From: an uncultured Chloroflexia bacterium
Lineage (GTDB): Bacteria > Chloroflexota > Limnocylindria > Limnocylindrales > CSP1-4
Assembly: GCA_963813305.1 (NCBI GenBank)
Contig: CAWEYP010000019.1
Span: 20,082 to 84,081, forward strand
Length of the DNA stretch: 64,000 bases
Reading direction: 5' to 3'
Numbering within the stretch: the first letter of the stretch is position 1; each line of letters opens with the position of its first letter. The notes under the pieces are model-generated. The model ran no database searches. It saw nothing but the letters and a program-made list of their open reading frames with translations, and was not told the DNA's origin. Both the position numbers and the translations under genes were made by a program. Shown here piece after piece: positions 16,355 to 47,905 of the stretch.

Positions 16355-17418
16355 CCGAGCCGCGCCTGCCGCGGGTGCTGCCCGGCGACGACCCGGCGGC
16401 CATCGCCGAGGCGGCGGCGCTCCTGCGGGCCGGGCGCCTCGTCGCCTTCCCGACCGAGACCGTCTACGGCCTGGCCGCCAACGCCCTCGACGCCGCGGCG
16501 GTCGCCCGCGTCTTCGCGGCGAAGGAGCGGCCGTCGTTCGACCCGCTCATCGTCCACCTGGCAGAGGCCGCCGAGCTGCCGCGGCATGTCCTCCCCGCCG
16601 ACGCCGCCGACCCGCGCGTGGCCGACCTGGCCGCACGCTTCTGGCCCGGTCCCCTGACCCTCGTCCTGCGGAAGCGCGACCACATCCCCGGCATCGTCAC
16701 GGCGGGCCTCCCGACCGTCGGCCTCCGGGTGCCCGACCATCCCGTCGCGCGGGCGCTGATCCGCGCCGCCGGCGTCCCGATCGCGGCGCCGTCGGCGAAC
16801 CGCTTCGGGCGGATCTCGCCCACGCGCGTCGAGCATGTGGTCCGGGGCCTGGGCGACCGCGTCGGCCTGGTCCTCGACGGGGGCCCCTGCCGCGTGGGGG
16901 TCGAATCCACGGTGGTCCTGCTCGCCGACGGCCGAGCTGTCCTCCTCCGGCCGGGCGGCGTTCCCGCCGAGGCGCTCGAGGCGGTGGTCGGCACCCTGGC
17001 TCACCCGGGCGACGATGAGCCGGGCACGGCGTCGCTCGCCCCGGGCCGGGCGGGCGGCCACTACGCGCCGGGGGCACGGGTCGAGATCGTCGATCCGGGG
17101 GATCCCGCGACGCTCGACCGTCTGCGGGCGCGGCCCGGCGAGCGGCTTGGCCTCCTCGCCGTCTCGGCCGCGGGAGCGGCGGCGGCCCGGGCGGTGGGCG
17201 GGCCGTTCGCGGCGTCGGTGACCCTTGCTCTCGACGGCGACCCCGTGGCGGTCGCGGCCGGCCTGTTCGACGCGCTCCACGACCTCGACGCGGCCGGCCT
17301 GGACCGGATCGTCGCCCAGCCGGTGCCGGCGGTCGGCGTTGGGCGGGCCGTGATGGACCGGCTTCGCCGGGCCGAGCTGGGCAGCGCCCCGTCGTACCGC
17401 GAACCGGCCGACGCCTGA
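16351..17418 (+). CDS. sua5: L-threonylcarbamoyladenylate synthase (Sua5/TsaC)
   Basis: AFPTETVYGL, KERPSFDPLIVH, FWPGPLT, APSANRFG, GVESTV, plus a C-terminal SUA5 domain. Confidence 0.92.
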   Translation: MTEPRLPRVLPGDDPAAIAEAAALLRAGRLVAFPTETVYGLAANALDAAAVARVFAAKERPSFDPLIVHLAEAAELPRHVLPADAADPRVADLAARFWPGPLTLVLRKRDHIPGIVTAGLPTVGLRVPDHPVARALIRAAGVPIAAPSANRFGRISPTRVEHVVRGLGDRVGLVLDGGPCRVGVESTVVLLADGRAVLLRPGGVPAEALEAVVGTLAHPGDDEPGTASLAPGRAGGHYAPGARVEIVDPGDPATLDRLRARPGERLGLLAVSAAGAAAARAVGGPFAASVTLALDGDPVAVAAGLFDALHDLDAAGLDRIVAQPVPAVGVGRAVMDRLRRAELGSAPSYREPADA

Positions 17419-17527
17419 CGTCCCGCTGACACGGGGCGCGCGGCGGGCTGACATGACCCGGCGACGCTCCCGGCACCGGCACGGCGTCGCACGGGACGGC
17501 CCGGCCGGGAAGACCAGGGAGATCACG

Positions 17528-18013
17528 ATGCGCCTTCGCCACCTCCTCCGGGCCGCCGCCCTTCCGGCCGCGCTCGCCCTCACGCTCCTCGGGTCGACCG
17601 TGGCCGCCGCGGCCGAGCCGGCGCCCGCCACCACCGGCACGGCGGTCGTCTCCGGCACCGGCCGGCTCGCCGCCGCCGGCGCAGGCGTCGTCCGCGTCCG
17701 GGGCAGCTTCACGATCACTGGCGCCATGAGCGGCGGCTCGCTGCTCGTCGACGGGATCGATCCGACGACGGCCATCCGGGTCACGGGCTGGACCTCGAAG
17801 ACCCGCGTCGACGGCGACTCGCTCCTGTACCGCGGCGTCAAGGGCACCTTCACCGTCGCCGGCCGGACGATCCGGGTGACGATCAGCAGCCCGCAGGTCC
17901 GCTTCGTCGCCTACGGCACGGGTGCCGCTCACCTCCGCGGCGTCGGGGTCTACCGGATCAACGGCGGCCCCTCGATCCCGTGGCCGAGGGCGGGCACCTG
18001 GATCGCCCTGTAG
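17528..18013 (+). CDS. Secreted hypothetical beta-rich protein
   Basis: GGGAG RBS and a Sec-type signal peptide ending AAA-AEP. Confidence 0.65.
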   Translation: MRLRHLLRAAALPAALALTLLGSTVAAAAEPAPATTGTAVVSGTGRLAAAGAGVVRVRGSFTITGAMSGGSLLVDGIDPTTAIRVTGWTSKTRVDGDSLLYRGVKGTFTVAGRTIRVTISSPQVRFVAYGTGAAHLRGVGVYRINGGPSIPWPRAGTWIAL

Positions 18014-18107
18014 GACCGCGGCGCCGGGCCGGCCGCCGGCGTGCTGGCCGGCCCGCGGCCGGCGGCGTGCGGACTCTGCCGGCAGCGTCCAGACCGGGCG
18101 GGCCGGT

Positions 18108-18611
18108 TCAGTAGACGAGCGGCAGCAGCTTCCGGACGCGGCGCCGGTAGTCCGCGTACCCCGGGTACGCCGCGAGGAGCCACGCTTCCTCGCGGCGTGC
18201 CTTCGCGTCGAAGAAGACGCCGAGCACGGCGGCCACGACGAGCGCCGCCGGGCTGGCCGTCAGCAGCCCCCATCCGACGGCGGCGGTGATGATCCCCGTG
18301 TAGATGGGGTGGCGCACGATGCGGTAGATCCCGTGCTCGACGAGCCGGCCGCCCTCGACCGGCCTGGGCACCGCGGTCAGGTTCTCGCGAAGCCCGACAA
18401 GCCCGAGGGTGGCCGCGGCGATCCCGAGGCCGACGAGGCACGCTCCGACGATCCGCCCCAGGACCAGCCACGGGTCCGCCCATGCCGGTCCGGCCGTGCC
18501 GGCCAGGGCGAGGAGGGCGAACAGGGCGACCTGGATCACCACCCAGCCTTCGCCGCGGGGACCCAGCGCGGGCACGCGGGTTCCGGGAGAGGACGGCGGG
18601 TCGGCCTGCAT
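18108..18611 (-). CDS. Isoprenylcysteine carboxylmethyltransferase/PEMT family membrane protein
   Basis: LVEHGIYRIVRHPIYTG and REEAWL...YADYRRRV. Confidence 0.85.
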   Translation of the reverse strand: MQADPPSSPGTRVPALGPRGEGWVVIQVALFALLALAGTAGPAWADPWLVLGRIVGACLVGLGIAAATLGLVGLRENLTAVPRPVEGGRLVEHGIYRIVRHPIYTGIITAAVGWGLLTASPAALVVAAVLGVFFDAKARREEAWLLAAYPGYADYRRRVRKLLPLVY

Positions 18612-18839
18612 CGAACGCATGATCGCCGCCCCCGCGCCATCGCGCCAGCCGTGGCCGAGGCGCGGTGCGGCCGATGGGACGGTGAGCGCGCCGGATGGCC
18701 CTTGTGTCACGCTAGCGGGCGCGGCCACCGTGGCAGGAGGAGTCGCCGGCCTCGGCCGGCAGGCGGCCGACGCACGGTGGCGGCCGGGGCTGGAGGAACG
18801 CCGGTGGCGGATGGAGCGGGCGCGGCTCCCCGGGCGCCG

Positions 18840-20000
18840 ATGCCGCCTGCCTCGACGCCCGACATCCGGCTTGTCGACCTCACGAAGCGCTTCCGGGAGA
18901 TCGTGGCCGTCGACGCGATCTCGCTCGACATCCAGATTGGCGAGTTCTTCTCGCTCCTCGGGCCGTCCGGCTGCGGCAAGACCACCACCCTCCGGATGAT
19001 CGGCGGCTTCGAGCTGCCGACGAGCGGCCGGATCGAGCTCCGCGGGCGCGAGGTCACGCACGATCCGCCCGAGCGACGGCCGGTGAACATGGTCTTCCAG
19101 AGCTACGCCCTCTTCCCGCACCTGTCGGTCTTCGACAACGTCGCGTTCGGGCTGCGGCGCCGCAAGGTCCCGGACGCGGAGGCCCGGAAGCGGGTCGGCG
19201 AGACACTGGAGCTGGTCCGCCTCACGGGCTACGACCGCCGAGGTCCCGGCGAGCTCTCCGGCGGCCAGCAGCAGCGCGTCGCGCTGGCCCGGGCGCTGGT
19301 CTGCGAGCCGACCGTCCTCCTGCTCGACGAGCCGCTCGGCGCGCTCGACCTGAAGCTGCGGCGACAGCTGCAGGTCGAGCTCAAGCGGGTCCAGGTGGAG
19401 GTGGGCATCACCTTCGTGTACGTGACCCACGACCAGGAGGAGGCCCTGGCACTGTCCGACCGGATCGCCGTCATGAACGGGGGTCGAATCGAGCAGCTGG
19501 GGACGCCGGAGGAGCTCTACGACCGGCCGCGGACGCGGTTCGTGGCCGACTTCATCGGGACCACGAACCTGCTGTCCGGCACGGTCGCGACCGTGGCAGG
19601 AGGCGACGCCGTCGTGGAGCTCGCCGGCGGCGGGCGCTGCGTCGTGAGCGCCGACGGGCTCGCCCTCGGGGCGGCCGTCGAGGTGGCCGTGCGTCCGGAG
19701 GCGATGGAGCTCGCCGTGGTGCCCGGTCCGGGCGCGACGGCCGGCGAGGGCCCGGCGGGCGGCGAGGGCCCGGCGGCCGGATCGTGGCTCCGCGGCGCGA
19801 TCGAGCAGTCCGCGTACCTCGGGACGTCGATCAGCTACCAGGTCCGGACCGCCGGCGGTGCACGCATCGTCGCGTCCGTCCCGCGTGCCCAGGACCGCAT
19901 CGCGGCGGGCACGCCCGTCGTGGTGCGATGGCGATCGGAGGATGCGCTGGTCCTCCCTGGACCTGCGATGTCGGGCGACGACAAGGAGGAAGCTCCATGA
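18840..20000 (+). CDS. potA: Polyamine-type ABC transporter ATPase (PotA-like)
   Basis: GPSGCGKTT, VNMVFQSYALFPHL, LSGGQQQRVALARAL, LLDEPLGALDLKLR, C-terminal TOBE domain. Confidence 0.88.
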   Translation: MPPASTPDIRLVDLTKRFREIVAVDAISLDIQIGEFFSLLGPSGCGKTTTLRMIGGFELPTSGRIELRGREVTHDPPERRPVNMVFQSYALFPHLSVFDNVAFGLRRRKVPDAEARKRVGETLELVRLTGYDRRGPGELSGGQQQRVALARALVCEPTVLLLDEPLGALDLKLRRQLQVELKRVQVEVGITFVYVTHDQEEALALSDRIAVMNGGRIEQLGTPEELYDRPRTRFVADFIGTTNLLSGTVATVAGGDAVVELAGGGRCVVSADGLALGAAVEVAVRPEAMELAVVPGPGATAGEGPAGGEGPAAGSWLRGAIEQSAYLGTSISYQVRTAGGARIVASVPRAQDRIAAGTPVVVRWRSEDALVLPGPAMSGDDKEEAP

Positions 20001-21198
20001 GCGACCACGATCCGACTCGGGCGGCGGGGCCGACGCCCGCCCGGCGCCTTCTCGAGGAGCGCCTCTCCCGCCGACGCCTGCTGGCGCGCATGGCGGCGCT
20101 GGGGGCCGGCGTACCGCTCCTTGCGGCCTGCGGCGGTGGCGCCACGGCATCTCCGACGACCGCGCCCGCGAGCGGCACGCCGGCCCCGACCGGAGCCGCG
20201 CCGAGCGTCGAGCCGACGCCGGTCCCGACGCCCGAGGCCGAGCTCTTCGTCTACAACTACACCGAGTACATCGGCGCGGACACGATCCCGTCGTTCGAGA
20301 AGAAGTACGGGGTCAAGGTCACCTACGACTTCTTCGACACGTACGAGACGATGACCGCCAAGATCTCGACGGGGAACAGCGGCTACGACATCACGTTCGC
20401 GACCGGCGTCGACGTGCCGGGCTTTCTGGCCAGAGATCTCGTCCAGCCGCTCGACCATTCGCTCATCCCGAACCTCGTCAATCTCGGCGAGGAGTGGCAG
20501 AGCCCCGCCTACGACCCGGGCAACGCCCACTCGGTGCCGTACATGTGGTGGACCACCGGCTTCGGCTACGACACGAAGAGGATCCCGGAGGACCTCACGT
20601 CGTGGGCCGTCGCTCTGGGACGAGCGCTGGAAGGGCAAGATGGCGATGCTCGACGACTACCGCGAGGCGTTCGCGGTGGCGCTCATCCGCCTCGGCTACA
20701 GCGTCAACACGACGAGCGACGCCGAGCTCGACGAGGCGCTGGCCCTCCTCGAGCAGCAGAAGCCGCTCCTGCGCAAGTACACCGCCGACGACATCGGCGA
20801 CCTCTCGAGCGGCGACGTCTGGCTGAGCCACGCCTGGGGCGCCGACGTCTCCCAGGTCAGCACGGAGCTGGAGTCGGTGACGTACGTGATCCCGTCCGAG
20901 GGCGGGATCCGCGGCTCCGACGCGATGGTGCTCCTGGCGAAGGCCCCGCATCCGATCGCCGCCAACCTGTTCATCAACCACATGCTCGACGCCGAGGTGA
21001 GCGCGGCGAACACGAACTACATCTACTACATGGGCCCGAACGAGGCAGCCAAGGCGTACATCGACCCGGCGATCCTCGCGGACCCGACCCTGAACCCGGA
21101 GAAGGCCGCGATCGAGAAGCTCCAGGAGCTCCTGGACCTCGGGCGCGGACCTGCAGAAGTACCAGGAGCGCTGGACCAAGCTCCGCGCCGGGGCCTGA
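19997..21198 (+). CDS. potD: Polyamine-type ABC substrate-binding Tat lipoprotein (PotD-like), frameshifted
   Basis: SRRRLL...LLAAC signal, LFVYNYTEYI, FEKKYGVKVTYD, DPGNAHSVPYMWWTTG, YVIPSEG. Confidence 0.83.
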
Positions 21199-21232
21199 CC
21201 CGCACGGCGGGACGACGAAGCGAGAGGCGACG

Positions 21233-22085
21233 ATGCGCGACCGGACGCGCGACGCGGTCTTCCTGCTGCCGGGCCTGGCCTGGCTGGTCGCTCTTCTTCG
21301 CCGTCCCGCTCGCGATCATCTTCGTCGTCAGCCTGGGGACGCCGCGACCAGTTCGGGGGCGTGATCCTCGACAACCTCGGCTTCGCAGAACTACCTCCGC
21401 GCGCTCGAGCCCGACTTCCTGCCGACCGTCGCCAACTCGCTGCGGTACGCGGTCGCTCACGACGATCTTCTCGATCGTCGATCGCCTACCCGATCGCCTA
21501 CTGGATCAGCCGCTACGGCGGCCGCCGCAAGATGCTCCTGCTGGTCCTGGTGATGCTCCCGTTCTGGACCAGCTGGGTGATCCGGACCTACGCCTGGATG
21601 ATCATCCTGCGCGACAACGGCGTCGTGAACGGGATCCTCGAGGGCCTCGGGCTCATCGAGCGAGCCGATCGCCCTCCTCAACACCGACCTCGCCGTCGTG
21701 CTGGGGATGACCTACGGCTTCCTGCCGTTCGCGATCCTGCCGCTCTACGTCTCGATCGACCGCCTGGACCCGGCGCTCGTGGCGGCCGCCCGCGACCTCT
21801 ACGCCAGCGGGCGGGCGGCCTTCTGGCACGTGACCCTGCCCCTCACGATGCCGGGCATCATCGCCGCGGCCCTGCTCACGTTCATCCCGGCGATCGGCGA
21901 CTTCGTGACGCCCGACCTGCTCGGCGGCGCCCAGACGATCACGATCGCCAAGGTCGATCCAGACGCTCTTCCTGTCGAGCAAGGACTGGCCCTTCGGGGC
22001 CGCCCTCGGCTTCCTGCTCATCGTGGCCACGATCGTCGGCGTCGTGGGGACCCTGCGGATCCTGCGCCGCGAGGTGATCGGCTGA
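21233..22085 (+). CDS. potB: Polyamine-type ABC permease (PotB-like), frameshifted
   Basis: LVMLPFWTSWVIRTYAW, AARDLYAS, FVTPDLLGG. Confidence 0.82.
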
Positions 22086-22896
22086 TGCGCCGCGACCGCA
22101 ACCCCCTGCTGACCGCTCTACGCCCTGCTCGTCTACGTCTTCCTGTTCGCCCCGATCGTCGTCCTGATCCTCTTCAGCTTCAACGACTCGAAGCGCAACT
22201 TCGTGTGGCGCGGCTTCACCCTGCAGGTGGTACCCGGAGCTGTTCGGGAACGACGCCCTCCTGCGCGGCGCTCGGCGTCACCCTCCAGGTCGCCGTGATC
22301 GCCGTCGTGGCCACGACGATCCTCGGCACGCTCCTGGGCCTGGGCCTGGCGCGCCTGCGCTCGGGCGCGGCCGCCGGGCGCCGCCGACACCCTGATCCTC
22401 CTGCCGATGGTGACCCCCGAGGTGGTGATGGGGATCAGCCTCCTGCTCTTCTTCGCCCTGCTCTTCACGCCGAACGGGTCGATCTGGCAGATCGCGATCG
22501 CCCACATCGCCTTCTCGATCTCGTACGTGGCGATCATCGTGCGGGCCCGGGCCGTCTCCCTGGACCCCCGGATGGAGGAGGCCGCCCGCGACCTCGGGGC
22601 GTCGGCGCGCGGGGCGTTCTTCCACGTGACGCTGCCGCTCATCGCCCCGGCGGTGGCGGCGGGGGCGCTGATCGCCTTCGCCCTCTCGTTCGACGACCTG
22701 ATCATCACCTCGTTCAACGCGGGGGTCGGGCTCGTCGACCCTGCCGCTCTACATCTACTCGCGCATCCGGTTCGGCGTCACGCCCGGAGATCAACGCGAT
22801 CTCCACGATCATCGTGGTCACCACCGCGCTGCTGATCCTCGTCTCGATGCAGGTGAGCTCGCGGCGGGCGCGCCGGCCGGGTGGTCCCGGCAGTGA
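22085..22896 (+). CDS. potC: Polyamine-type ABC permease (PotC-like), frameshifted; 3' end approximate
   Basis: ILFSFNDS, PEVVMGISLL, EEAARDLGAS, LSFDD, PEINAIST. Confidence 0.8.
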
Positions 22897-22928
22897 ACGA
22901 GCGTCCATCCAGCGCAAGGAGCTGACCC

Positions 22929-24389
22929 ATGGCCGTCCACGTCGCTCGCCCGCCCCTGGAGCCGATCCGCTCGCCCTACCGCGTCCGGTTCCTCGGCGAC
23001 GACCAGCTGGACCAGCTCCAGGCCGCGACGCTCCGCATCCTCGAGGAGGTCGGCGTCAGGTTCCCCTCGGCGATGGCGCTCGAGATCCTGGCCGACCACG
23101 GCGCGAAGGTCGACATGGCGAGCCAGGTCGTCCGCTTCCCGCCGGACCTCGTCCGCCGGGCCCTCGCCACCGCGCCGCGCTACTTCACGATGGGCGCCCG
23201 CGTCCCCGAGTACGACCTCCACCTCGCCGACGGCGTCGACCTGGTTCACGACCGACGGCTGCGGCATCGAGACGATCGACTTCGACACGCGCGAGCAGCG
23301 CCCGTCGCGCAAGAGCGACGTCGGCCGAGATGGCCCGGATCGCCGACTACCTGCCGTCGATCGGGTTCTACTGGCCGATGGTGAGCGCCCAGGACCACGG
23401 CCGGACGGCGCCGCTCCACGAGGTCGACGCCGCGTTCAACAACACGGTCAAGCACGTCCAGTCCGAGACGGTCATGGGCGCCGCCCCGGCGCGCTACGTC
23501 GTCGAGATGGCGACCGTGATCGCCGGCAGCCGCGAGGCGCTCCGCGAGCGGCCGCCGTTCTCGGACCTCATCTGCACGATCGCGCCCCTGGTCCAGGACG
23601 ACGCCGGCATCGAGTCGGCCCTGGTGCTGGCCGAGGCCGGCATCCCGGTCGGGTTCCTGGCGATGCCGACCCTCGGCACGACCGCGCCGGCGACCCTGGC
23701 CGGCGCCTTCGCGGTCGGCGACGCCGAGGTCATCAGCGGCGCCGTCCTGCTCCAGCTGGCCTACCCGGGCACGCCCGGTCTTCCACTCGATCATGCAGGC
23801 CTGGGCCGACCCGCGGAACGGCAACTACGTGACCTACTCGGTCGACAGCCGGACGCGCTACGCGCCGGTCGAGATGGCCCACCACTGGGGCCTGCCGTCG
23901 CTGGGCGCCTGCTACGGCACCGACTCGCCGGCCGCCGGCACCTGGCAGGCCGCCGCCGAGGTCGTGCTCGACCCGGTGCTGGCCGGGCTCACCTCGCCCG
24001 AGATCGTCACCGGGATGGGGCTCGACCGGACCTACACCCTCCTCTACCCGGAGGGGCTCCTCCTCGACGACGACATCTACCAGCGGGCCCGCCACGCCCT
24101 CATGGCCCTCGACGTGGACGACGAGACCCTGGCCCTCGACGTCGTCGCCTCCGTCGGGCCGGGCGGCCACTACCTCGCCGAGGAGCACACCCGGACGCAC
24201 ATGCGGACGTCGCTCCGGCGCGGCCTCCCCCACGAGCCCGCCGAGAGCGGCGGCTACCGCGACCCGGTCGAGGTCGCCCGCGAGAAGGTCGCCTGGATCC
24301 GCGAGAACCACCACCCCGAGCCGCTGGAGGCGGCGCAGCAGGCCGAGCTGGCGCGGATCCTGGCCGCCGCCGACCGGGAGATCGGGTGA
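22929..24389 (+). CDS. Trimethylamine methyltransferase (MttB superfamily, non-Pyl), copy 1, frameshifted
   Basis: LRILEEVGVRF, ALATAPRYF, NTVKHVQ, GTTAPATLAG, VGPGGHYL, HPEPL. Preceded by an AAGGAG RBS. Confidence 0.88.
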
Positions 24390-25923
24390 TGGCCGGGCCG
24401 GCGACGGCTCGACCCGGCGCGCGGCCGCCCGGCCGAGCGGCTCCGGCGGCGCCCCGGCGGCGGACGGCCCGAGCGCGACGCCGCCGCTGGAGCCGATCCG
24501 CTCGCATCGCCGGATGCAGTTCCTCGACGACGAGCAGCTCGACCGGCTGCAGGACGCGACGCTCCGGATCCTCGAGGAGGTCGGCGTCCGGTTCCCGTCC
24601 GAGGCCGCCCTGGAGATCCTGGCCGGCCACGGGGCGAGCGTCGACCGGGCGACCCAGGTCGTCCGCTTCCCGCCCGACCTCGTCCGGCGGGCCCTGGCCG
24701 ACGCGCCGCGCACCTTCACGATGGCGGCGCGCGACCCGCGCTTCGACCTCCACCTCGAGGAGGGGGTCAGCTACTTCACGACCGACGGCTGCGGCGTGGC
24801 GACGATCGACTTCGACACCCGCGTGGAGCGGCCGTCCCGCAAGAGCGACGTCGCCGAGATGGCGCGGATCGCCGACTACCTCTCGTCGATCGGCTTCATG
24901 TGGCCGACCGTCAGCGCCCAGGACCACGGCGCGACGTCCCAGCTCCACGAGATCGACGCCGCGGTCAACAACACGGTCAAGCACTTCCAGGGCATGGTCC
25001 AGGGCGGCGAGCCCGCCCGTCGCGCGATCGAGATGGCGACCGTGCTCGCCGGCAGCCGCGAGGCGCTCCGCGAGCGGCCCATGCTGTCCGACCTCATCTG
25101 CTCCATCGCGCCGCTGGCCCACGATCACGACGGCCTCGAGGCGGCGCTCGCCTTCGCCGAGGCCGGGATCCCGGTCGGGATGCTCGCCATGCCGACGCTC
25201 GGCACGACGGCCCCGGCGACCTCGGCCGGCGCCCTGGTCGTCGGCGACGCCGAGGTCATCTCCGGGATCGTGCTCCTCCAGCTGGCCTTCCCGGGCACGC
25301 CGGTCTTCCACTCGATCATGAAGGCCTGGGCCGACCCGCGGACCGGCAGCTACGTCGGCTACTCCATCGACAGCCGGGCGCGCTACGCCCCGGTCGAGAT
25401 GGCCCACCACTGGGGCCTGCCGTCGATGGCCGCCTGCTTCGGGACGGACTCGCCGGCCGCCGGCACCTGGCAGGCCGGCGTCGAGGTGGCCCTCGACCCG
25501 CTCCTCGGCGGCCTCGCGGGCCCCGAGATCGTGACGGGGATGGGCCTCGACCGGACCTACACCCTGCTCTACCCCGAGGCGATCATCCTCGACGACGACG
25601 TCTACCAGCGGGCGCGCCACGCCCTGCTGGCCGAGGAGATCAGCGACGAGACGCTGGCCCTCGACGTCATCGCGAACGTGGGGCCGGGCGGCCACTTCCT
25701 GGCCGAGAAGCACACCCGGACCCACATGCGGACCTCGCTCAAGCGAGGCCTGACCCACGAGCTGGCGCCGGAGGGCGGCTACCGCGACCCGGTCGAGGTG
25801 GCCCGCGAGCGGGTGGCCTGGATCCGGGCGAACCATCATCCGGAGCCGCTCGAGCCGGCCAAGGCGGCCGAGCTGACGCGGATCCTCGCGGCCGCCGACC
25901 GCGAGCTGGGGGCGGCGGCATGA
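24389..25923 (+). CDS. MttB-superfamily methyltransferase, copy 2 (frameshift in the N-terminal extension; core ORF 24514..25923)
   Basis: Same MttB motifs; TGATG overlap with copy 1. Confidence 0.9.
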
Positions 25924-27428
25924 GCGCGACGCCCCCGCTGCGGCCGATCCGGCCGGCCCACCACGCCCGCTTCCTCGACGACGGACAGCTCGCCGACCTG
26001 CGCGCGGCCACCCTGGAGATCCTCGAGGAGGTCGGTGTCCACTGCCCGTCGAAGGCCGTCCGCGCGCTCTACGCCGAGCACGGGGCGCTCGTCGACGAGG
26101 CGCGGGAGGTGGTCCGCCTCCCCGCCGACCTGGTGGAACGGGCGATGGCGCGGGCGCCGCGCGGCTACGTCATGGGCGCGCGGGACCCCGCCTTCGACCT
26201 CGTCCTCGACGGGACCGCCCTGTACGTCGCCACCGACGGCTGCGGGATCGAGGTCCTGGAGCCGGGCGGCCACCGGCGCGCCTCCACGGCCGCCGACGTG
26301 GCGACCGCGGCCCGCCTGGCCGACGCGCTCCCGGCGGTCGGCTTCTACTGGCCGATGCTGAGCGCCCAGGACCATCCTCTGACCGCGCCGCTCCACGAGC
26401 TCCTGGCCTCGTACCCGAACACGGTGAAGCACGTCCAGACCGAGACGGTGATGGGCGCCCGGCCGGCGCGGTACGCGGTGGAGATGGCCCGGGTCCTCGC
26501 CGGCGACGACGCGACGCTGCGGGCGCGGCCGCCGCTCTCCGCGCTCATCTGCACGATCGCCCCGCTGGCCCAGGACGACGAGGGGATGGAGGGGGCCCTG
26601 GTCCTGGCCGAGGCCGGCATCCCGGTCGGCTTCATGTCGATGGCGACGGCCGGCTCCACCGGCCCCGCCACGATCCCCGGCACCGTCGTCGCCGGCGACG
26701 CGGAGATCGTGGCGGCGCTGACGCTCGTCCAGCTGGTCCATCCCGGCGCCCCGGTCTTCCACTCGCTGATGACCGGGATGATGGAGCCGCGCACGGGCGC
26801 CTACCTGGCGACGCCCTGGGAGGGCGAGATCGCCTACGTGGCCGGGGTGGAGCTGGCCCACGCCTGGGGCGTCCCGACCCTCGCCGGCGTCTACGGCACC
26901 GATGCCCGGACGCCGGGCTGGCAGGCGGCCGCGGAGGCGGCGGTGGCCCTGACGCTGTGCGCCCTCGCCGGCGCCGAGACCGGCAGCGGGATGGGCCTCC
27001 TGGAGTCCTGCACGCTCTTCACCCCCGAGCAGCTGGTCCTCGACGGCGACCTCCACGAGCGGGTGCGCTGCACGCTGGCGGCCTTCGACACGAGCCGCGA
27101 GGCGCTGGCCCTCGACGTGATCAGGGCGGTCGGCCCCAAGGGCCACTACCTGTACGAGCGGCACACCCGCGACGAGCTGCGCCGGCGACGCTTCTCCCCG
27201 CTGACCGGGCAGGTGGCCCTCGACGGGACCCCGATCGACCCGGTCGACGCCGCCCGGGCCGAGGCCGCCCGGATCCTGGCCGAGCACCTCCCCGAGCCGC
27301 TCGACGACGCCCGGGCGCGCGAGCTGGCACGCATCGTGGCGGCCGCGGACCGCGAGGCGGAGGCCGGGGAAGGGGCCGCGGCGGCGGCACCCGCCGGTCG
27401 CGGCCACCGCGCGGGGTCGCGAGGATGA
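25920..27428 (+). CDS. MttB-superfamily methyltransferase, copy 3
   Basis: LEILEEVGV, TDGCG, NTVKHVQTE, GSTGPATIPG, VGPKGHYL. Frame intact. Confidence 0.9.
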   Translation: MSATPPLRPIRPAHHARFLDDGQLADLRAATLEILEEVGVHCPSKAVRALYAEHGALVDEAREVVRLPADLVERAMARAPRGYVMGARDPAFDLVLDGTALYVATDGCGIEVLEPGGHRRASTAADVATAARLADALPAVGFYWPMLSAQDHPLTAPLHELLASYPNTVKHVQTETVMGARPARYAVEMARVLAGDDATLRARPPLSALICTIAPLAQDDEGMEGALVLAEAGIPVGFMSMATAGSTGPATIPGTVVAGDAEIVAALTLVQLVHPGAPVFHSLMTGMMEPRTGAYLATPWEGEIAYVAGVELAHAWGVPTLAGVYGTDARTPGWQAAAEAAVALTLCALAGAETGSGMGLLESCTLFTPEQLVLDGDLHERVRCTLAAFDTSREALALDVIRAVGPKGHYLYERHTRDELRRRRFSPLTGQVALDGTPIDPVDAARAEAARILAEHLPEPLDDARARELARIVAAADREAEAGEGAAAAAPAGRGHRAGSRG

Positions 27429-28880
27429 CGACGCTCGTCGAGGTCCTCCCGGCGGCCCGGCGGGAGGAAGTCCGTGAGCGGGCGCTTACTGTCCTGGCGC
27501 GGACCGGGCTCCGGGTCGAATCCGACCGGGCCCGGGCGCTCCTCGGTGCGGCGGGCGGTCAGGTCGACGAGGGCAACCTCCGGGTCCGCCTGCCGCTGGC
27601 CGTCGTCGAGGCGGCGCTTGCGGCCGCCCCCCGCTCGTTCACCCTCGGTGGGCGGCGCGACGGCTGGGAGCTGCCGCTCGACGGGACCGGCTGCAGCCTC
27701 GTCGCCGACGGCGAGGCGCTCCAGACGCTCGAGCTGCCGGCGGGGACCCGGCGCGCGGCGACGGAGGCCGACTGGGAGCAGTCGACGCGCCTCATCGACG
27801 CCCTCCCCGAGGTCGGCGTCTACTGGCGGATGGTCGGCTTCGAGGGCGGCGACCCGGCGCCCGGGCGCGACCGCCCGGGCCTGGGCCGGCGCCTTCACCT
27901 GGTTCGGCCGCCACGTCCAGGACTCGGCGGCCGACGAGGGCGAGGCGCGCTGGCTCCTGGAGATGCTCGACGTCCTCTTCGGGGGTCGCGAGGAGGTCCG
28001 CCGGCGGCGGCCGTTCTCGTTCCTGCTCTGCCCCTTCACGCCGCTCGTCCTCGAGGGGCCGTACACGGACGCCTGGCTGGCGACGGTCGACTGGGGGCTC
28101 CCGGTGGCGGCGATGCCGATGCCGATGATGGGCCTCTCGGCGCCGGTCGGGCTCCTGGCGACGACGGTGCTCGGGACGGCCGAGACGCTGGCGACCCTCT
28201 GCCTGGTCCAGGCCGCGGCGCCCGGCACGCCGTTCATCTTCGCACCGGCCCTTGCGGTCATGGAGCCGCGGAGCGGGCGCTACGCCGGCGGCGCCGTGGA
28301 GCACGCCCTCCTGGGCGCGGCGACGACCGAGATGGCCCGCCACCTCGGGCTTCCCGTCCAGGCCTCGGTCGGCGGGACGGACGCCCACGTTCCGGGCGTC
28401 CAGGCCGGCCTCGAGCGGGCCCTCGGCGCGCTTCTCCCCGTGCTCGCCTGGCCGGACCTCCTCGTCGGCCCGGGGCTCCTCGGCGGCTCGACCGTCTACT
28501 CGCCCGAGCAGCTCATCCTCGACGTGGAGCTCTTCCGCCGGTGCCTGCGCCTCCGGCGAGGCATGGACGGCGCCTTCGAGGAGGCCGTCGAGGCGGCGCT
28601 CGACGAGGCCGGGCCCGGCGGCGACTTCATCGCCCGGCCGGCGACCCGGCGGGCGACCCACGAGGGCGAGTGGCACCTCGACCGGATCGGCGTCCGGGAC
28701 ACCTGGGAGCGCTGGGAGGCGGCCGGGCGGCCGGACGCCGTCGACGACGCACGGGCGCTCGCGACGGAGCTGCTCGCCACCCACGAGCCACCACCCATGG
28801 ACGAGGCGACGGCGCGCGCGCTCGCCGACCTCGTGGAGCGGGCTGCCGCGGCGGACGCGGCGGCGACGAAGGGACGATAG
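27425..28880 (+). CDS. MttB-superfamily methyltransferase, copy 4 (divergent; frameshift near 27860)
   Basis: VLARTGLRV, AAAPRSFTL, PMMGLSAPV, AAAPGTPFIF, AGPGGDFI. Confidence 0.85.
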
Positions 28881-28882
28881 CG

Positions 28883-30317
28883 ATGCGGTACGGGGCAACC
28901 TTCCTCGACGGCGCCGAACGCGACCAGGTCCACGAGGCGAGCCTGCAGATCCTCGCCGAGACCGGCGTGCGCTTCCACGGCGAGCGGGCGCTGCCGCTGC
29001 TGGCCGACGCCGGCGCCCAGGTGGACGCGGAGGCCGGCGTGGCCCGGATCCCGCGCGAGCTCGTCGAGGCGGCCCTGGCGTCGGCGCCCCGCTCTTTCGT
29101 CCTCGGCGCCCGCAATCCGGCCCACGACTACGCCCTCCCCTCCCCGGTGACGCGCTACGCGATCGACGGGACGGCCGCCTTCGCCATCGACTTCGAGACC
29201 GGCGAGCGGCGCTACGGCACGCGGCGCGACTGCGGAGCTGGCGCTGCGCGTCTTCCAGCAGGCGGACATGGGGGTCATGGCCTGGGCGCCGGTGACCGCC
29301 TCCGACGCCCCCGCCGGGACGCGCGCCCTCCACGAGTTCGTGGCGATGGTCCGCCACTCCTCCAAGCACGGGCAGCACGAGCTCCACACCCGGGAGCAGG
29401 TCCCCTTCCTCGCCGAGGCCCTCACGATCGCCGGGGGCGGCGCGGCCGCCGTCCGCGAGCGCCATCCCTGGTCGCTGATCTACTGCCCGGTCGCGCCGCT
29501 GGTCCACGACGGGCCGATGCTCGACGCCTACCTCGACCTCGGCGAGCTCGACCTGCCGGTCATGATCATGCCGATGCCGGTGACGGGCACGACCGGCCCG
29601 GCCGGGCTCCTGGCGAACGTCGCGCTGGCCAACGCCGAGGCGCTCTCGGCGATCGTCGTCTACCAGCTGGCGCACCCCGGGCGGCCGGTGATGTACAGCA
29701 GCGCCACCGGCTCGATGGACTTCCGCACCGGCGCCTTCCTGGGCGGGACGCCGGAGATGGGGATCATGTCGGCCGCGCTCGTCACGATGGGCCGCTCGTA
29801 CGGCCTGCCGGCCACCGCGGCGGGCTGCACGTCCGACGCGCCTGAGCCCGGGCCGGAAGCGGTCATCGAGAAGCTCGTGACGATGCTCCCGCCGGCCTCG
29901 GCCGGCGCCGACATCGTGGTCGGCTTCGGCGAGATCCAGGGCGACCAGGCCCTGGTCCTCGAGCAGATCCTCGTCGACAACGAGCTGGCCCACTACGTCG
30001 AGCGCCTGGTGGAAGGGGTCGGAGAGCCGGCCGACCCCGACTTCGTCGCCGAGGTGGCCTCGGTCGGGCCGGGCGGCAACTTCCTGGCAAGCCGCGTCAC
30101 CCGCCGTGCGGCCCGCAGCCGCGAATTCCTCGTGCCGTCGCTCATCGGCCGCCACGCCTACGAGGCCTGGCGCGACCTCGGCTCGCCGTCGATGTACGGG
30201 CGGGCCCGGGACCGGGTTCGCGAGATCCTCGCCGGACCCGTCGTCGACCCCCTCCCCGACGCCGTCGAGGCCGAGCTGGCCCGCGTCCTCGCCGCCGCCG
30301 ACGCGGAGCTGGGATGA
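28883..30317 (+). CDS. MttB-superfamily methyltransferase, copy 5 (frameshift near 29230)
   Basis: HEASLQILAETGVRF, SSKHGQ, GTTGPAGL, MDFRTG, VGPGGNFL. Confidence 0.87.
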
Positions 30318-30382
30318 CCGACGCCCCCGGCGCCGCGCCCGCCACCACACCCGTTCGCCATGCACCCCCGGAGGACCGAGCC

Positions 30383-31030
30383 ATGACCGAGGACCTGTTC
30401 GCGGCGATGCGCCAGAGCGTGATCGACGGCGATTCCGACGCCGCGGCCGAGCTGGCCAGGCAGTCCCTGGCGGCGGGCATGGACCCCGTCGCCGCCATCG
30501 ACGAAGGGTTCGTGCCCGGGATCCACATTGTCGGCGAGCAGTTCCGCTGCGGCGACATGTTCCTGCCCGACATGATGCTCGCCGCCCGCGCGATGCAGAA
30601 GGCGATCGGCATCCTCGAGCCGGAGATGCTCGCCCGGTCCGCCCAGCGCAAGGTCCTGGGGCGGGTGGTCATCGGGACGGCGAAGGGCGACATCCACGAG
30701 ATCGGCAAGAACCTCGTCGGGATGATGCTCACGGCGAACGGCTTCGAAGTCCACGACCTCGGCGTCGACGTGACGCCGGAGCGCTTCGTGGAGAAGGTGC
30801 GCGAGGTCGGGGCGAACGTCGTCGGCGTGTCGGCGCTCCTGACGACGACGATGGTCGGCCAGCGCGCCGTCATCGCCGCCCTCGCCGACGCCGGCCTGCG
30901 CGACAGCGTCAAGGTGGTGGTCGGCGGCGCCCCGGTCACCCGGGCCTGGGCCGACGAGATCGGCGCCGACGGCTACGGCGAGGACGCCGTCGGGGCGGTC
31001 ACCGTCACGCGGGCGCTCGTCGGCGCCTGA
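30383..31030 (+). CDS. Corrinoid (cobalamin-binding) methyl-acceptor protein, MttC/MtgC-like
   Basis: Cap domain plus GTAKGDIHEIGKNLV (DxHxxG), VGVSALLTTT, VVGGAP, GADGY. GGAGG RBS before 30383; alternative start at 30314. Confidence 0.93.
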   Translation: MTEDLFAAMRQSVIDGDSDAAAELARQSLAAGMDPVAAIDEGFVPGIHIVGEQFRCGDMFLPDMMLAARAMQKAIGILEPEMLARSAQRKVLGRVVIGTAKGDIHEIGKNLVGMMLTANGFEVHDLGVDVTPERFVEKVREVGANVVGVSALLTTTMVGQRAVIAALADAGLRDSVKVVVGGAPVTRAWADEIGADGYGEDAVGAVTVTRALVGA

Positions 31031-31062
31031 GGGTCCAGGATGATGAAGCGCGGGCTCGTGCG

Positions 31063-31674
31063 ATGACCGGCGGCGATGCTCCGGGACCCGTTCCTGCGAG
31101 GCCGTCGCGTTGGCGCGTCGGTCCGCCGGGTGTGCTCGTCTCCCTCGCGACCGCCACCGCGATCGTGATCGCGCTGGACGCGAGCTCCCGGGGGTCGCTC
31201 GGGACGTACCTGATCGCCGCGCCGATCTGGTTCGTGATCGCGGGCGCATGGCTCGTGCGGTTCGGCATGGCCGCGGCGCGAACCCGGCTGCGGATGCCGA
31301 CCGCGCACTGGGCGCGCTGGCTGATGATCCCGGTCGCGATGGGGCTCGTGTTCCTCGTCACGCGGACGGAGGTGCTGTTCGACACCCGGCTCGCCCTCTC
31401 GCGCGGTGCGATGGACCAGATGGCCGCGGACGTGATGGCGGGCGGCTCGGCGGACCGCGGCTGGGTCGGCCTGTACGACGTGGGCGAGGTCGAGCGGACC
31501 GCGAACGGCTTGCGGTTCGTGGTCGATGACAGCGGTCTCTACCGACTGGGGTTCGCCTACTCGCCCGACGGAGAGCCGAGGCTGACCGAGGACAACTACT
31601 CGCCACTCTGGACCGGCGCAACCTTCGAGCCGGTGGGCGGCGGCTGGTGGCTCTGGTCCGAGGCGTGGGACTGA
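31063..31674 (+). CDS. Hypothetical membrane protein
   Basis: Three hydrophobic segments and a C-terminal GFAYSPDG...GGGWW domain. Confidence 0.65.
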   Translation: MTGGDAPGPVPARPSRWRVGPPGVLVSLATATAIVIALDASSRGSLGTYLIAAPIWFVIAGAWLVRFGMAAARTRLRMPTAHWARWLMIPVAMGLVFLVTRTEVLFDTRLALSRGAMDQMAADVMAGGSADRGWVGLYDVGEVERTANGLRFVVDDSGLYRLGFAYSPDGEPRLTEDNYSPLWTGATFEPVGGGWWLWSEAWD

Positions 31675-34763: not shown

Positions 34764-34880
34764 CGCTTCCTCCCGGGACCCCTCGCCGCGCGGGCCGCCG
34801 TCGGCTAGTCTAGGCGCGCGCCGGTCCCGGTTGGCGACGGTGGACGCGGAGGCGGCCGGCGAGGGGAGGTTGTTCGCGCC

Positions 34881-46860: not shown

Positions 46861-47905
<1,045 letters not shown>

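What the first reader, a model, noticed from the sequence alone, without database searches (positions are those of the whole stretch)
18840..31030. PotABCD-like importer + five tandem non-pyrrolysine MttB methyltransferases + one corrinoid protein: candidate demethylation system for an unknown methylated amine or polyamine
Seen: ten co-oriented genes, with ATGA/TGATG overlaps at 19997, 22083, 24387, 25920, 27425 and 30314. They encode a polyamine-class ABC importer with a Tat-lipoprotein binding protein, five MttB paralogs of graded divergence, and one DxHxxG corrinoid protein. No in-frame TAG was seen at the approximate Pyl position; by eye alignment it is G,G,G,G,T before TDS/TDA/SDA. Known: non-Pyl MttBs such as MtgB (glycine betaine), MtcB (carnitine) and MtpB (proline betaine) demethylate quaternary amines onto a corrinoid protein, and mtgB is linked to a BCCT-type transporter. 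Inference: a Pot-type importer plus five enzymes sharing one corrinoid suggests stepwise or multi-substrate demethylation of N-methylated diamines or polyamines, a substrate class I do not know to be described for this family.
Basis: partly seen in the sequence, partly recalled or inferred. Interest (0 to 1): 0.85.

Follow-up and report, generated by a model that had tools for sequence, protein, structure and literature searches.

The report
Amine importer plus corrinoid demethylase operon
An uncultured Chloroflexota bacterium carries an operon that joins a polyamine-type uptake system to five vitamin-B12-dependent methyl-removing enzymes for a still unidentified methylated amine, but in this assembly most of its genes are broken by single-base insertions that look like sequencing errors.

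Summary
In the window, however, six genes are split by 23 lone +1 insertions, and a 68-nt insertion cuts off MttB2's N-terminus. A relative (G013, ~87% nt identity) has all ten genes intact. Environmental contigs omit the extra bases, and unrelated genes are also frameshifted. I therefore read the breaks as assembly errors, not decay.

The organism is Chloroflexota (Limnocylindria-like), not an actinobacterium. The transporter-MttB linkage recurs in 22 of 80 related loci. The MttBs form three conserved classes: A (triplicated here), B and C. Each has its own pocket signature, and none of 69 orthologs keeps the arginine that binds the acid group in every characterised family member. The binding protein keeps PotD's four acidic residues but replaces the critical W255 with Gly and F254 with Arg/Lys in 75 of 75 orthologs.

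More distant copies of the transporter sit beside GbcA-like, DmdA/GcvT-like and MttB-like genes. Best reading: import and corrinoid-dependent demethylation of an unidentified N-methylated amine. A polyamine substrate remains speculative. This is a new variant of a known kind.

The parts
18840..20000 (+). PotA-like ABC ATPase (ABC_tran + TOBE_2), intact
   Evidence: Pfam. NCBIfam: best hit PotA NF006987 at 375 bits (below cut-off 482); potA subfamily TIGR01187 at 353.6, just under cut-off 355.6. The G013 ortholog passes with 366.8.
19997..21198 (+). PotD-like solute-binding protein with Tat motif and lipobox; split into 3 frames by +1 insertions near 20610 and 21148
   Evidence: The G013 ortholog matches E. 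coli PotD 1POT at E 5e-49. NCBIfam PotD 172.6 bits, below cut-off 582.
21221..22085 (+). PotB-like permease, in 4 frame pieces (7 lone insertions); start approximate
   Evidence: G013 ortholog: best NCBIfam hit PotB at 232 bits, below cut-off 348.
22085..22896 (+). PotC-like permease, frameshifted (7 lone insertions)
   Evidence: G013 ortholog: best NCBIfam hit PotC at 231.9 bits, below cut-off 326.
22893..24389 (+). MttB1 (class A), GTG start; 3 lone insertions at about 23237, 23322 and 23778 give 4 frame pieces
24514..25923 (+). MttB2 (class A), open from ATG 24514; conserved N-terminal segment cut off by the 68-nt insertion at 24402-24473
   Evidence: NCBIfam TIGR02369 349 bits, below cut-off 525.
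25920..27428 (+). MttB3 (class A3), intact
   Evidence: NCBIfam TIGR02369 320 bits, below cut-off 525. PDB comparison.
27425..28880 (+). MttB4 (class B), one frameshift near 27863, TAG stop
28883..30317 (+). MttB5 (class C), one frameshift near 29232
30314..31030 (+). Cognate corrinoid protein (B12-binding_2 + B12-binding, DIHEIG), intact
   Evidence: NCBIfam TIGR02370 230.6 bits, above cut-off 215.3.

Best explanation
This is a genuine, conserved catabolic operon of Limnocylindria-type Chloroflexota. A PotABCD-class ABC importer, whose PotD-type binding site has been remodelled, takes up an N-methylated, positively charged amine. Three specialised classes of non-pyrrolysine MttB methyltransferases (A, present here as MttB1, 2 and 3; B = MttB4; C = MttB5) transfer its methyl groups to the Co(I) form of the corrinoid protein encoded at the end of the operon. 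An unlinked pterin-binding methyltransferase then passes the methyl group to tetrahydrofolate, an MTHFR oxidises it, and a RamA-type activase repairs oxidised cobalt.

Shown: the gene families, the conserved linkage, the class-specific pocket residues and the remodelled binding site.

Inferred: the substrate (unidentified), and whether the classes act stepwise on successive methylation states or on several related substrates. I favour stepwise.

The frameshifts in the window are assembly errors, not gene decay.
For: Families. All five MttBs match PF06253. The corrinoid protein passes TIGR02370. The transporter's best hits are PotA, PotD, PotB and PotC.

Operon packing. There are start/stop overlaps at 5 junctions, and the gene order is the same and fully intact in G013.

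Linkage. 22 of the 80 loci kept (from 493 confirmed relatives) have MttB genes directly downstream of permease 2 and co-oriented with it. The other 58 have none adjacent, but 16 of them have a distant MttB homolog within 10 kb. Among the 45 of those 58 longer than 15 kb, 28 carry a Rieske oxygenase (best NCBIfam hit GbcA), 20 a GcvT-like gene (best hit DmdA) and 15 an MttB-like gene next to the transporter. The whole transporter clade therefore sits in demethylation neighbourhoods.

Enzyme classes. At the positions equivalent to MtgB Y97 / R312 / F356, class A (28 sequences) has C / L or M / Y. A3 (16) has C or S / L / C. B (11) has E in 10 and Q in 1 / variable / S or A. C (14) has T / variable / D in 14 of 14. 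None of the 69 has Arg at the R312 position. G001 has just one each of A, B and C.

Binding site. D168, E171, D257, W229, Y37 and Y293 of PotD are kept (D168 is Glu in 3 orthologs), while W255 is Gly and F254 is Arg/Lys in 75 of 75 orthologs.

Downstream steps. A RamA-MTHFR-Pterin_bind-corrinoid operon is present in 4 of 4 relatives searched.

Error reading of the frameshifts. There are 23 lone +1 insertions and 0 lone deletions. No stop codon lies inside any in-frame piece. Identity to G013 is about the same in the broken stretch (88.1%) and the intact stretches (89.5% and 84.8%). Contigs of 4 environmental runs omit one letter at 9 of the same sites. Frameshifts also occur in unrelated window genes and in MetH, SelA and SelB elsewhere in the genome. 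The genome scores only 56% complete despite having just 22 contigs.
Against: No expression or biochemical data exist for any member of this clade.

The RamA/MTHFR/pterin methyltransferase operon was not found in the window's own assembly, although that assembly is incomplete.

An in-cluster corrinoid gene was seen in only 4 of the 22 linked loci besides the window, and G001's cluster has none. Several loci end too early to tell.

Loss of the arginine that every characterised non-Pyl member uses could mean a different chemistry or no activity, rather than a new substrate.

The class signatures rest on sequence alignment only. HMMER and MAFFT differ by one column for class B at the Y97 position.

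The 22 insertions within 3.2 kb (20610-23778) are far denser than in the rest of the window (about 5 shifts in the other syntenic genes). An error model has to assume a locally bad stretch.

The environmental contigs are relatives (90-99% alike), not the same strain. They show that the extra bases are private to this assembly, not that the cell's DNA lacks them.
Confidence: 0.62

Rival explanations
1. The substrate is an already known acidic quaternary amine (glycine betaine, carnitine, gamma-butyrobetaine, proline betaine or similar). 'Pot-like' is only a family label, and the paralogs are redundant or cover several such betaines.
For: Every characterised non-Pyl MttB acts on an acidic quaternary amine (PMC12155760 passages; PMC13080624 Discussion). 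The binding protein has an invariant Arg/Lys at the PotD F254 position that could hold a carboxylate. Distant copies of the transporter neighbour GbcA-like and DmdA-like genes. The corrinoid protein's second-best NCBIfam hit is MtgC (230.6 bits, below cut-off 310).
Against: None of 69 orthologs has the R312-equivalent arginine, and Y97, H348 and F356 are not kept as a set. The paralogs score about equally against MtgB and Pyl-MttB in the PDB (155-195 bits). The binding protein keeps four acidic residues typical of polyamine sites. All 22 solved structures matching at E <= 8.3e-31 are named as putrescine/spermidine/polyamine-binding or transport proteins, except 4gl0, titled 'Lmo0810 protein'.
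Confidence: 0.25
2. One reading: the substrate is an N-methylated diamine or polyamine.
For: The transporter components are most similar to PotABCD. The acidic tetrad E36/D168/E171/D257 is kept (E36 as Asp or Glu in most). The bulky W255 and Y85 are replaced by Gly and Val/Thr/Ile, which would make room for methyl groups. The MttBs have no carboxylate-binding arginine.
Against: W255 is described as critical for spermidine binding (PMC11414716 passages) and is absent in 75 of 75 orthologs. A conserved basic residue sits next to the pocket. No polyamine catabolic genes lie in the cluster or its flanks. The demethylation neighbours of the distant transporters point to betaine-like compounds.
Confidence: 0.15
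3. In this strain the operon is a decaying pseudogene cluster: the frameshifts are real mutations.
For: Insertions are far denser in 20610-23778 (22 in 3.2 kb) than elsewhere in the window. Within the genus the cluster is accessory, seen clearly only in G001 and G013 among the relatives listed.
Against: All lone changes are +1 insertions. There are no nonsense substitutions and no excess divergence. Housekeeping genes are frameshifted too. Completeness is 56% with only 22 contigs. Relatives and environmental contigs lack the extra bases.
Confidence: 0.1
4. The transporter is an ordinary polyamine importer that merely lies next to MttB genes, with no functional link.
For: Adjacency alone does not prove a shared substrate. 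Annotations of close homologs call it a spermidine/putrescine binding protein.
Against: The permease 2 / MttB1 junction overlaps (GTGA at 22893-22896; ATGA in G013). The linkage holds in 22 loci. The binding site is remodelled across the whole clade. Even the unlinked copies sit beside demethylation genes.
Confidence: 0.07

Closest known systems
MtgB/MtgC/MtgA glycine betaine:THF methyltransferase system of Desulfitobacterium hafniense (MtgB structures 2QNE and 9YCE)
   Same: A non-pyrrolysine MttB-family TIM-barrel enzyme methylates a small DxHxxG corrinoid protein of the TIGR02370 family. A pterin-binding methyltransferase and a RamA-type activase complete the pathway.
   Different: The glycine-betaine-binding residues Y97, R312, H348 and F356 are not kept (C/E/T; L/M/Q/T; no His; Y/C/S/D). 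Match scores are only 155-195 bits. There are three enzyme classes and five genes instead of one. Uptake is by an ABC Pot-type importer. MT2 and RamA are unlinked. The host is an uncultured Chloroflexota lineage.
Aerobic MtgBCD(E) system of Ruegeria pomeroyi (PMC12478193)
   Same: PF06253 enzymes are used outside strict anaerobes. The corrinoid, pterin-binding methyltransferase, MetF-like and RamA genes are scattered or in separate operons.
   Different: That system acts on glycine betaine, uses a BCCT-type transporter and doubles as a split methionine synthase. Here a full-length MetH is also present in the genome, and the transporter is Pot-type.
Eubacterium limosum MtcB, MtpB, MtyB and MthB (carnitine, proline betaine, gamma-butyrobetaine, phosphocholine)
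   Same: Several MttB paralogs with different specificities occur in one genome, each methylating a corrinoid protein.
   Different: All those substrates are acidic quaternary amines, and the R312-equivalent arginine is reported as conserved (PMC13080624 main text). It is absent in all 69 orthologs here. I could not obtain those sequences, so no joint tree was built.
Pyrrolysine-containing MttB/MttC of Methanosarcina (7XCL)
   Same: Same fold family, with a similar match score (177-190 bits). Like the proteins here, it lacks an Arg at the R312 position (it has Tyr).
   Different: There is no TAG codon. Gly or Thr stands at the pyrrolysine position. Scores of 304-349 bits are far below the TIGR02369 cut-off of 525.
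Escherichia coli PotABCD spermidine/putrescine importer (PotD 1POT; complex described in PMC11414716)
   Same: The same four components, each with Pot proteins as best hits. PotD residues E36 (as E or D), D168, E171, D257, Y37, W229 and Y293 are kept.
   Different: W255 is replaced by Gly, F254 by Arg/Lys, Y85 by Val/Thr/Ile, and W34 is often Tyr. The binding protein is a Tat-signal lipoprotein. The binding protein and both permeases score far below the NCBIfam equivalog cut-offs.

Membership tests
MttB superfamily (Pfam PF06253) | Significant full-length match to the MTTB profile | tested here: met
   Window MttB2 scores 218.8 bits and MttB3 213.5 bits; pieces of MttB1, 4 and 5 score 43-173 bits. 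The intact G013 orthologs score 182-245 bits over profile positions ~25-499.
Pyrrolysine-type trimethylamine methyltransferase MttB (NCBIfam TIGR02369 equivalog) | Score above the equivalog cut-off (525 bits) and an in-frame TAG (pyrrolysine) at the active-site position | tested here: not met
   Scores are 304-349 bits. There is no in-frame stop in any coding piece. The Pyl column is G,G,G,G,T.
MtgB, glycine betaine methyltransferase | Glycine-betaine-binding residues Y97, R312, H348 and F356 (PMC13080624) | tested here: not met
   Alignment to 9YCE and MAFFT columns. The Y97 position has C/E/T. The R312 position is never Arg (0 of 69). H348 falls in a gap in MttB2. The F356 position has Y/C/S/D.
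Characterised non-Pyl MttB enzymes acting on acidic quaternary amines (MtgB, MtcB, MtpB, MtyB, MthB) | Conserved arginine equivalent to MtgB R312 that pairs with the substrate's acid group | tested here: not met
   0 of 69 orthologs have it. The conservation claim comes from the main text of PMC13080624. Its supplementary alignments were not available to me.
Methyltransferase cognate corrinoid protein (NCBIfam TIGR02370) | Score above cut-off 215.3; B12-binding_2 cap plus B12-binding domain; DxHxxG motif | tested here: met
   230.6 bits. Both Pfam domains are present. DIHEIG is present.
PotA polyamine ABC ATPase (NCBIfam TIGR01187 subfamily) | Score above cut-off 355.6 | tested here: inconclusive
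   The window protein scores 353.6, just under the cut-off. The G013 ortholog scores 366.8, above it. The PotA equivalog NF006987 scores 375-388, below its cut-off of 482.
PotD spermidine/putrescine-binding protein (NCBIfam NF007048 equivalog) | Score above cut-off 582, with the spermidine-site residues: acidic E36, D168, E171, D257 and aromatic W34, Y37, W229, W255 | tested here: not met
   172.6 bits. The acidic residues are kept, but W255 is Gly in 75 of 75 orthologs and W34 is Tyr in the window-type copies. It belongs to the wider PotD/PotF structural family: E 5e-49 to 1POT.
Complete corrinoid methyltransferase pathway (MT1 + corrinoid protein + MT2 + RamA activase) | Presence of a methylcorrinoid:THF methyltransferase (Pterin_bind) and a RACo/RamA activase in the same genome | tested here: inconclusive
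   Not found in the window's own, incomplete assembly. Present as a RamA-MTHFR-Pterin_bind-corrinoid operon in 4 of 4 same-genus genomes searched.

The most novel reading that the evidence does not exclude
The operon encodes the first complete, three-step corrinoid-dependent N-demethylation route in the MttB superfamily for a substrate that is not an acidic betaine. Candidates are a methylated di/polyamine or a methylated basic amino acid such as trimethyllysine. Class A (hydrophobic/aromatic pocket) would take the quaternary or most methylated form. Classes B and C would use a conserved pocket Glu and Asp respectively, in place of pyrrolysine, to activate the tertiary and secondary amine products. 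The methyl groups would feed tetrahydrofolate-linked C1 oxidation in abundant soil and wetland Chloroflexota.
Probability: 0.15. Interest if true: 0.85.

Novelty: new variant of a known kind. Interest (0 to 1): 0.55.

Why it matters
It has a conserved operon that names its own importer. It has three enzyme classes with distinct, conserved pocket residues and no acid-binding arginine. Its binding protein should be easy to express for ligand screening. The hosts are uncultured Limnocylindria-type Chloroflexota; the window itself matched wetland and sediment metagenome runs only at small word shares, so I name no habitat. The pathway may represent an unrecognised sink for methylated nitrogen compounds and a demand for cobalamin. 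The case also carries a practical warning: in error-prone long-contig MAGs, a reader working by eye can take a heavily frameshifted stretch for intact genes.

Tried and rejected
I used blastn traceback and tblastn instead.

2. A regular-expression scan for the active-site motif across the genome found nothing because the pattern was too strict. MAFFT columns replaced it.

3. Selenoprotein idea. selA, selB and selD flank the cluster in relatives, so I looked for in-frame stops in the MttB genes of the 22 linked loci. The only one found was a terminal stop. Rejected.

4. Pyrrolysine idea for the MttB on contig C9, which was flagged '1 TAG'. The TAG lies after a frameshift near the C-terminus, and the Pyl column reads Leu. 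Rejected.

5. I first took an ORF after MttBc in G001 to be a corrinoid gene. It is a spurious Arg/Ser/Ala-rich frame, and there is no B12-binding hit there. Corrected in the notebook.

6. The sigma-70 promoter and intrinsic terminator scan of 17400-31600 gave nothing above shuffles.

7. The flanks of the second MttB cluster on C16 were annotated in the hope of finding a contrasting betaine transporter. None is there; the flanks hold heme biosynthesis genes, DAO, M24, MFS and ABC-2.

8. The flanks of the window cluster are unrelated: Sua5, class II aldolase, S15 peptidase and a glyoxalase-like gene. The rest of the window is unrelated too.

9. I could not build a tree with characterised MttB members. 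PDB bit scores serve as a rough proxy.

10. The look-up of sequencing runs found only small shares (0.12-0.17) in wetland and sediment metagenome runs. I draw no habitat or strain conclusion beyond what the laid contigs show.

11. I ran no structure prediction, fold search, complex prediction, protein-atlas search or representative search, because none would identify the ligand.

12. Supplementary files of the papers were closed. Figures S2 and S3 of PMC13080624 (alignments behind the R312 conservation claim) could bear on that claim.

Full report
**What is in the sequence**

The window has about 74% G+C, so open frames alone are uninformative. I located genes by third-position GC, Pfam on stop-to-stop frames and tblastn with intact paralogs and orthologs. 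On the + strand the order is:
- an ABC ATPase with a TOBE_2 domain (18840-20000);
- a solute-binding protein (19997-21198);
- two permeases (~21221-22085 and 22085-22896);
- five PF06253 MttB genes (22893-24389, 24514-25923, 25920-27428, 27425-28880, 28883-30317);
- a B12-binding_2 + B12-binding protein (30314-31030).

The binding protein has SRRRLL followed by LLAAC, and the corrinoid protein has DIHEIG; reading the first pair as a Tat motif and a lipobox is from my own knowledge. No coding piece contains an internal stop. The pyrrolysine column reads G,G,G,G,T.

Most of these genes are not open in the window.
- The binding protein lies in 3 frames, permease 1 in 4, permease 2 in at least 2, MttB1 in 4, and MttB4 and MttB5 in 2 each.
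- Aligned to the syntenic cluster of a same-genus genome (G013, 85-90% nucleotide identity), the window has 23 lone single-base insertions between 20610 and 29232 and no lone single-base deletion. Twenty-two of them lie in 20610-23778.
- A 68-nt insertion private to this assembly (24402-24473) separates the ATG of the TGATG at 24387 from the MttB2 frame. MttB2 can therefore only start at ATG 24514 and loses a conserved N-terminal segment.

**Errors or decay?**

I read these changes as assembly errors, with about 85% confidence, for these reasons.
- In G013 all ten genes are single open frames.
- The broken stretch is no more diverged from G013 (88.1%) than the intact stretches (89.5% and 84.8%).
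- There are no nonsense substitutions.
- Unrelated syntenic genes in the window are also frameshifted, at 12040-13351, 32678-34957, 46870-47860 and 50173-51205.
- So are MetH, SelA and SelB on other contigs.
- The genome scores 56% complete although it has only 22 contigs and 2.85 Mb, while relatives of 3.0-3.6 Mb score 91-95%.
- Contigs from four environmental runs (90-99% alike) leave out exactly one letter at or next to 20610, 21291, 21660, 21956, 22116, 22727, 22782, 23322 and 23773, in most though not all of the depth at each site.

Two caveats apply. Those contigs come from relatives, so they show only that the extra bases are private to this assembly. And the local density of insertions is much higher than the window's background, so real decay in this strain keeps about 10%.

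**Which organism**

Relatives of the binding protein in the species-representative genome collection are almost all MAGs titled 'uncultured Chloroflexia bacterium', 'Candidatus Limnocylindrales bacterium' or Chloroflexota. The sister family in the same order has genomes of about 1.1 Mb and no MttB homolog in the 12 searched. The host is therefore a Limnocylindria-type Chloroflexota. One paper notes, at the level of KEGG annotation, that mttB-type genes are common in Limnocylindria MAGs (PMC11264602, passages).

**Family placement**

- ATPase: the best NCBIfam hits are PotA models. The potA subfamily cut-off is narrowly missed by the window copy (353.6 against 355.6) and passed by the G013 ortholog (366.8).
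- Permeases: best hits are PotB and PotC, below the equivalog cut-offs.
- Binding protein: it matches E. coli PotD (1POT) at E 5e-49. All 22 solved structures matching at E <= 8.3e-31 are named as putrescine/spermidine/polyamine-binding or transport proteins, except 4gl0, titled 'Lmo0810 protein'.
- The five MttBs: they score 304-349 bits against the pyrrolysine-type equivalog (cut-off 525). In the PDB they are about equally distant from MtgB (9YCE/2QNE) and Pyl-MttB (7XCL), at 155-195 bits.
- Corrinoid protein: it passes TIGR02370 (230.6 against 215.3).

**Three enzyme classes**

Pairwise identities define three classes.
- Class A: MttB1 and MttB2 are 77% identical, and MttB3 is 52-54% identical to them.
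- Class B is MttB4 and class C is MttB5.
- A, B and C differ from one another at 31-38% identity.

G001 has the same transporter followed by just one A, one B and one C. The core is therefore a trio, and the five genes here result from a triplication of A.

For MtgB, a 2026 study showed by mutagenesis and a ligand-bound crystal structure that Y97 and F356 hold the quaternary nitrogen and that R312 and H348 hold the carboxylate. It states that R312 is conserved in all members of known function, whose substrates are all acidic quaternary amines (PMC13080624, Results and Discussion). A 2025 paper makes the same point for phosphocholine and MthB (PMC12155760, passages).

I took 69 orthologs from 22 loci, after dropping HSPs that covered under 80% of the query or were under 50% identical. 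The equivalent columns are class-specific and conserved:

| Class (n) | Y97 position | R312 position | F356 position |
|---|---|---|---|
| A (28) | C | L or M | Y |
| A3 (16) | C or S | L | C |
| B (11) | E (10), Q (1) | variable | S or A |
| C (14) | T | variable | D (14 of 14) |

None of the 69 has Arg at the R312 position. The other MttB paralogs in this genome also lack it.

Conserved, class-specific pockets argue for specialised roles rather than redundancy. An acidic residue in B and in C but not in A would fit enzymes that must protonate a tertiary or secondary amine, with A taking a permanently charged quaternary form. That last step is my inference from alignment columns only.

**The binding site**

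According to the PotD-PotABC structure paper, PotD binds spermidine with four acidic residues (E36, D168, E171, D257) and four aromatic residues (W34, Y37, W229, W255), and W255 is critical (PMC11414716, passages). I mapped these through the 1POT alignment onto 75 orthologs, having dropped 5 of the 80 loci for incomplete HSPs.
- Kept: D168 (Glu in 3), E171, D257, Y37, W229 and Y293.
- E36 is Asp or Glu in 18 of the 19 linked copies but in only 38 of the 56 unlinked ones.
- W255 is Gly in 75 of 75.
- F254 is Arg or Lys in 75 of 75.
- Y85 is Val, Thr or Ile.

So this is a polyamine-family pocket that has been enlarged and given a basic residue. That fits a cationic ligand bulkier than spermidine, and possibly one that also carries an acid group. 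It does not settle the ligand.

**Conserved linkage**

One search confirmed 493 relatives of the binding protein and kept the best 80 loci, each with 10-kb flanks.
- Twenty-two loci (binding protein at least ~61% identical) have MttB genes directly downstream of permease 2 and co-oriented. They carry one to three A copies. B and C usually follow, or lie a few kb away on the other strand. Three loci show only A copies within reach.
- The other 58 loci have no adjacent MttB. Sixteen of them have a distant MttB homolog (25-28% identity) within 10 kb.
- In the 45 of those 58 that are longer than 15 kb, the transporter is followed on the opposite strand by three kinds of gene: a Rieske/Ring_hydroxyl_A oxygenase in 28 loci (best NCBIfam hit GbcA, 209 bits, cut-off 670); a GcvT-family protein in 20 (best hit DmdA, 316 bits, cut-off 410; next the C-terminal part of TMAO demethylase); and an MttB-family protein in 15.

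The whole transporter clade shares one binding-site signature and sits beside methyl-removing enzymes of three unrelated kinds. This is the strongest evidence that its ligand is a methylated onium or amine compound. It also weakens the polyamine idea, because the nearest named relatives of those neighbours act on carboxylate-bearing substrates.

**The rest of the pathway**

- The cluster's immediate flanks are unrelated, as is the rest of the window.
- In the window's own assembly I found no RamA-type activase. The only Pterin_bind matches are one on contig C7, which I did not follow up, and one on C22 followed by a B12-binding domain, which I read as MetH.
- Four of four same-genus genomes searched carry an unlinked operon of RamA (Fer2, Raco_middle, RACo_C_ter), an MTHFR with the DUF5981 C-terminal domain, a pterin-binding methyltransferase and another corrinoid protein. 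This mirrors the MtgD-MetF2/RamA arrangement described for aerobic Ruegeria (PMC12478193, Results).
- In 9-10 of the 22 linked loci, selA and selB lie just upstream and selD lies among the MttB genes. Four loci carry a molybdopterin oxidoreductase nearby, which I take to be formate-dehydrogenase-like. None of the 58 unlinked loci has these genes. In the window's genome they lie on contig C9 near another MttB. That is compatible with oxidation of the methyl group to formate and CO2, but it is circumstantial.
- An in-cluster corrinoid gene was seen in the window and in 4 of the 22 linked loci. G001's cluster has none.

**Comparison with what is known, and novelty**

The system works like the MtgB/MtgC-type corrinoid methyltransferase systems, and its MttBs are members of the MttB superfamily. 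It fails the tests for the pyrrolysine-type enzyme, for MtgB, and for the arginine that unites all characterised non-Pyl members. Its importer works like PotABCD but fails the PotD equivalog test and lacks W255.

Full-text searches for MttB together with Pot, polyamine, Limnocylindria, Chloroflexota, methylated polyamine, N-methylputrescine or trimethyllysine found no paper describing this linkage (I saw listings only, except for the papers cited above). I file it as a new variant of a known kind.

My rough odds for the substrate are:
- a carboxylate-bearing betaine of some kind: about 35%;
- a methylated di/polyamine: about 15-20%;
- a methylated basic amino acid such as trimethyllysine: about 15%;
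- something else (choline-like compounds, simple methylamines, other): the remainder.

**Limits**

- There are no expression or biochemical data.
- The class signatures rest on alignment columns, not structures.
- I could build no tree with characterised enzymes.
- Only the best 80 of 493 related loci were examined.
- Supplementary files of the papers were closed.

Noticed in passing
window 20610-23778, plus 27863 and 29232: The lone inserted bases are not in homopolymers. At least 8 of the 23 fall in a GTC-to-GTCG or GT-to-GTCG context (for example GGTC[G]CT, CGTC[G]AT, CGT[C]GAC). This looks like a systematic base-calling or polishing error at a sequence motif.
   Followed up: partly
window 24402-24473: A G+C-rich 68-nt insertion (58 + 10 nt in the alignment) between MttB1 and MttB2 is absent from G013. 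It puts the conserved MttB2 N-terminus out of frame with the ATG at 24389.
   Followed up: partly
L034:16048-17190 (-), L044:6543-8006 (-), L037:4624-6606 (-), L034:4909-6588 (-); G000:C9:78564-98589: selD, selA, selB and a molybdopterin oxidoreductase (which I take to be formate-dehydrogenase-like) flank or interrupt the Pot-MttB cluster in 9-10 of the 22 linked relatives and in none of the 58 unlinked loci. In the window's genome the same genes lie on contig C9 near another MttB. No MttB gene has an in-frame TGA.
   Followed up: partly
L107:5089-10452 (= G001:C2:238088-243451); also G013:C9, G007:C1, G004:C1: A conserved operon holds RamA (Fer2 + Raco_middle + RACo_C_ter), MTHFR with DUF5981, a pterin-binding methyltransferase and a corrinoid protein. 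It is the likely MT2/activase module for all MttB systems of the genus. It was not found in the window's own assembly.
   Followed up: yes
G000:C16:60194-65389 (L001-L003): A second cluster, conserved across the genus: MttB, corrinoid protein, MttB, MttB. The three MttBs are only 29-33% identical to one another and all intact here. The cluster lies next to heme biosynthesis genes, a DAO oxidoreductase, an M24 peptidase and an MFS transporter. It has the same 'three divergent MttBs plus one corrinoid' architecture as the core of the window cluster.
   Followed up: partly
L048:12971-14461 (-), L059:14354-15613 (-), L050:15956-17590 (-) and 40-odd similar loci: Copies of the Pot-like transporter with a 50-60% identical binding protein are followed on the opposite strand by a GbcA-like Rieske oxygenase, a DmdA/GcvT-like protein and a divergent MttB. 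This is a second conserved demethylation neighbourhood, built from three unrelated enzyme types.
   Followed up: partly
window 12040-13351, 32678-34957, 46870-47860, 50173-51205: Genes unrelated to the cluster are also split over two or three frames relative to their G013 orthologs, including an S15 X-Pro dipeptidyl-peptidase at 32678-34957.
   Followed up: partly
window 58272-60623 (+) and 34809-36542 (+): A 784-aa protein made almost entirely of WD40 repeats (12 repeats by Pfam), and a response-regulator receiver domain fused to a pyridine-nucleotide-disulphide oxidoreductase.
   Followed up: no
G000:C9:73631-75061: Another frameshifted MttB paralog. It has Tyr at the R312 position (as in Pyl-MttB) and Leu at the pyrrolysine position. 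The TAG flagged by the genome search lies after a frameshift near the C-terminus and is not a pyrrolysine codon.
   Followed up: yes
L060 (record titled uncultured Gaiellaceae bacterium): One of the 80 transporter loci carries an actinobacterial label, while all the others are Chloroflexota. This could be mis-binning, mislabelling or horizontal transfer.
   Followed up: no
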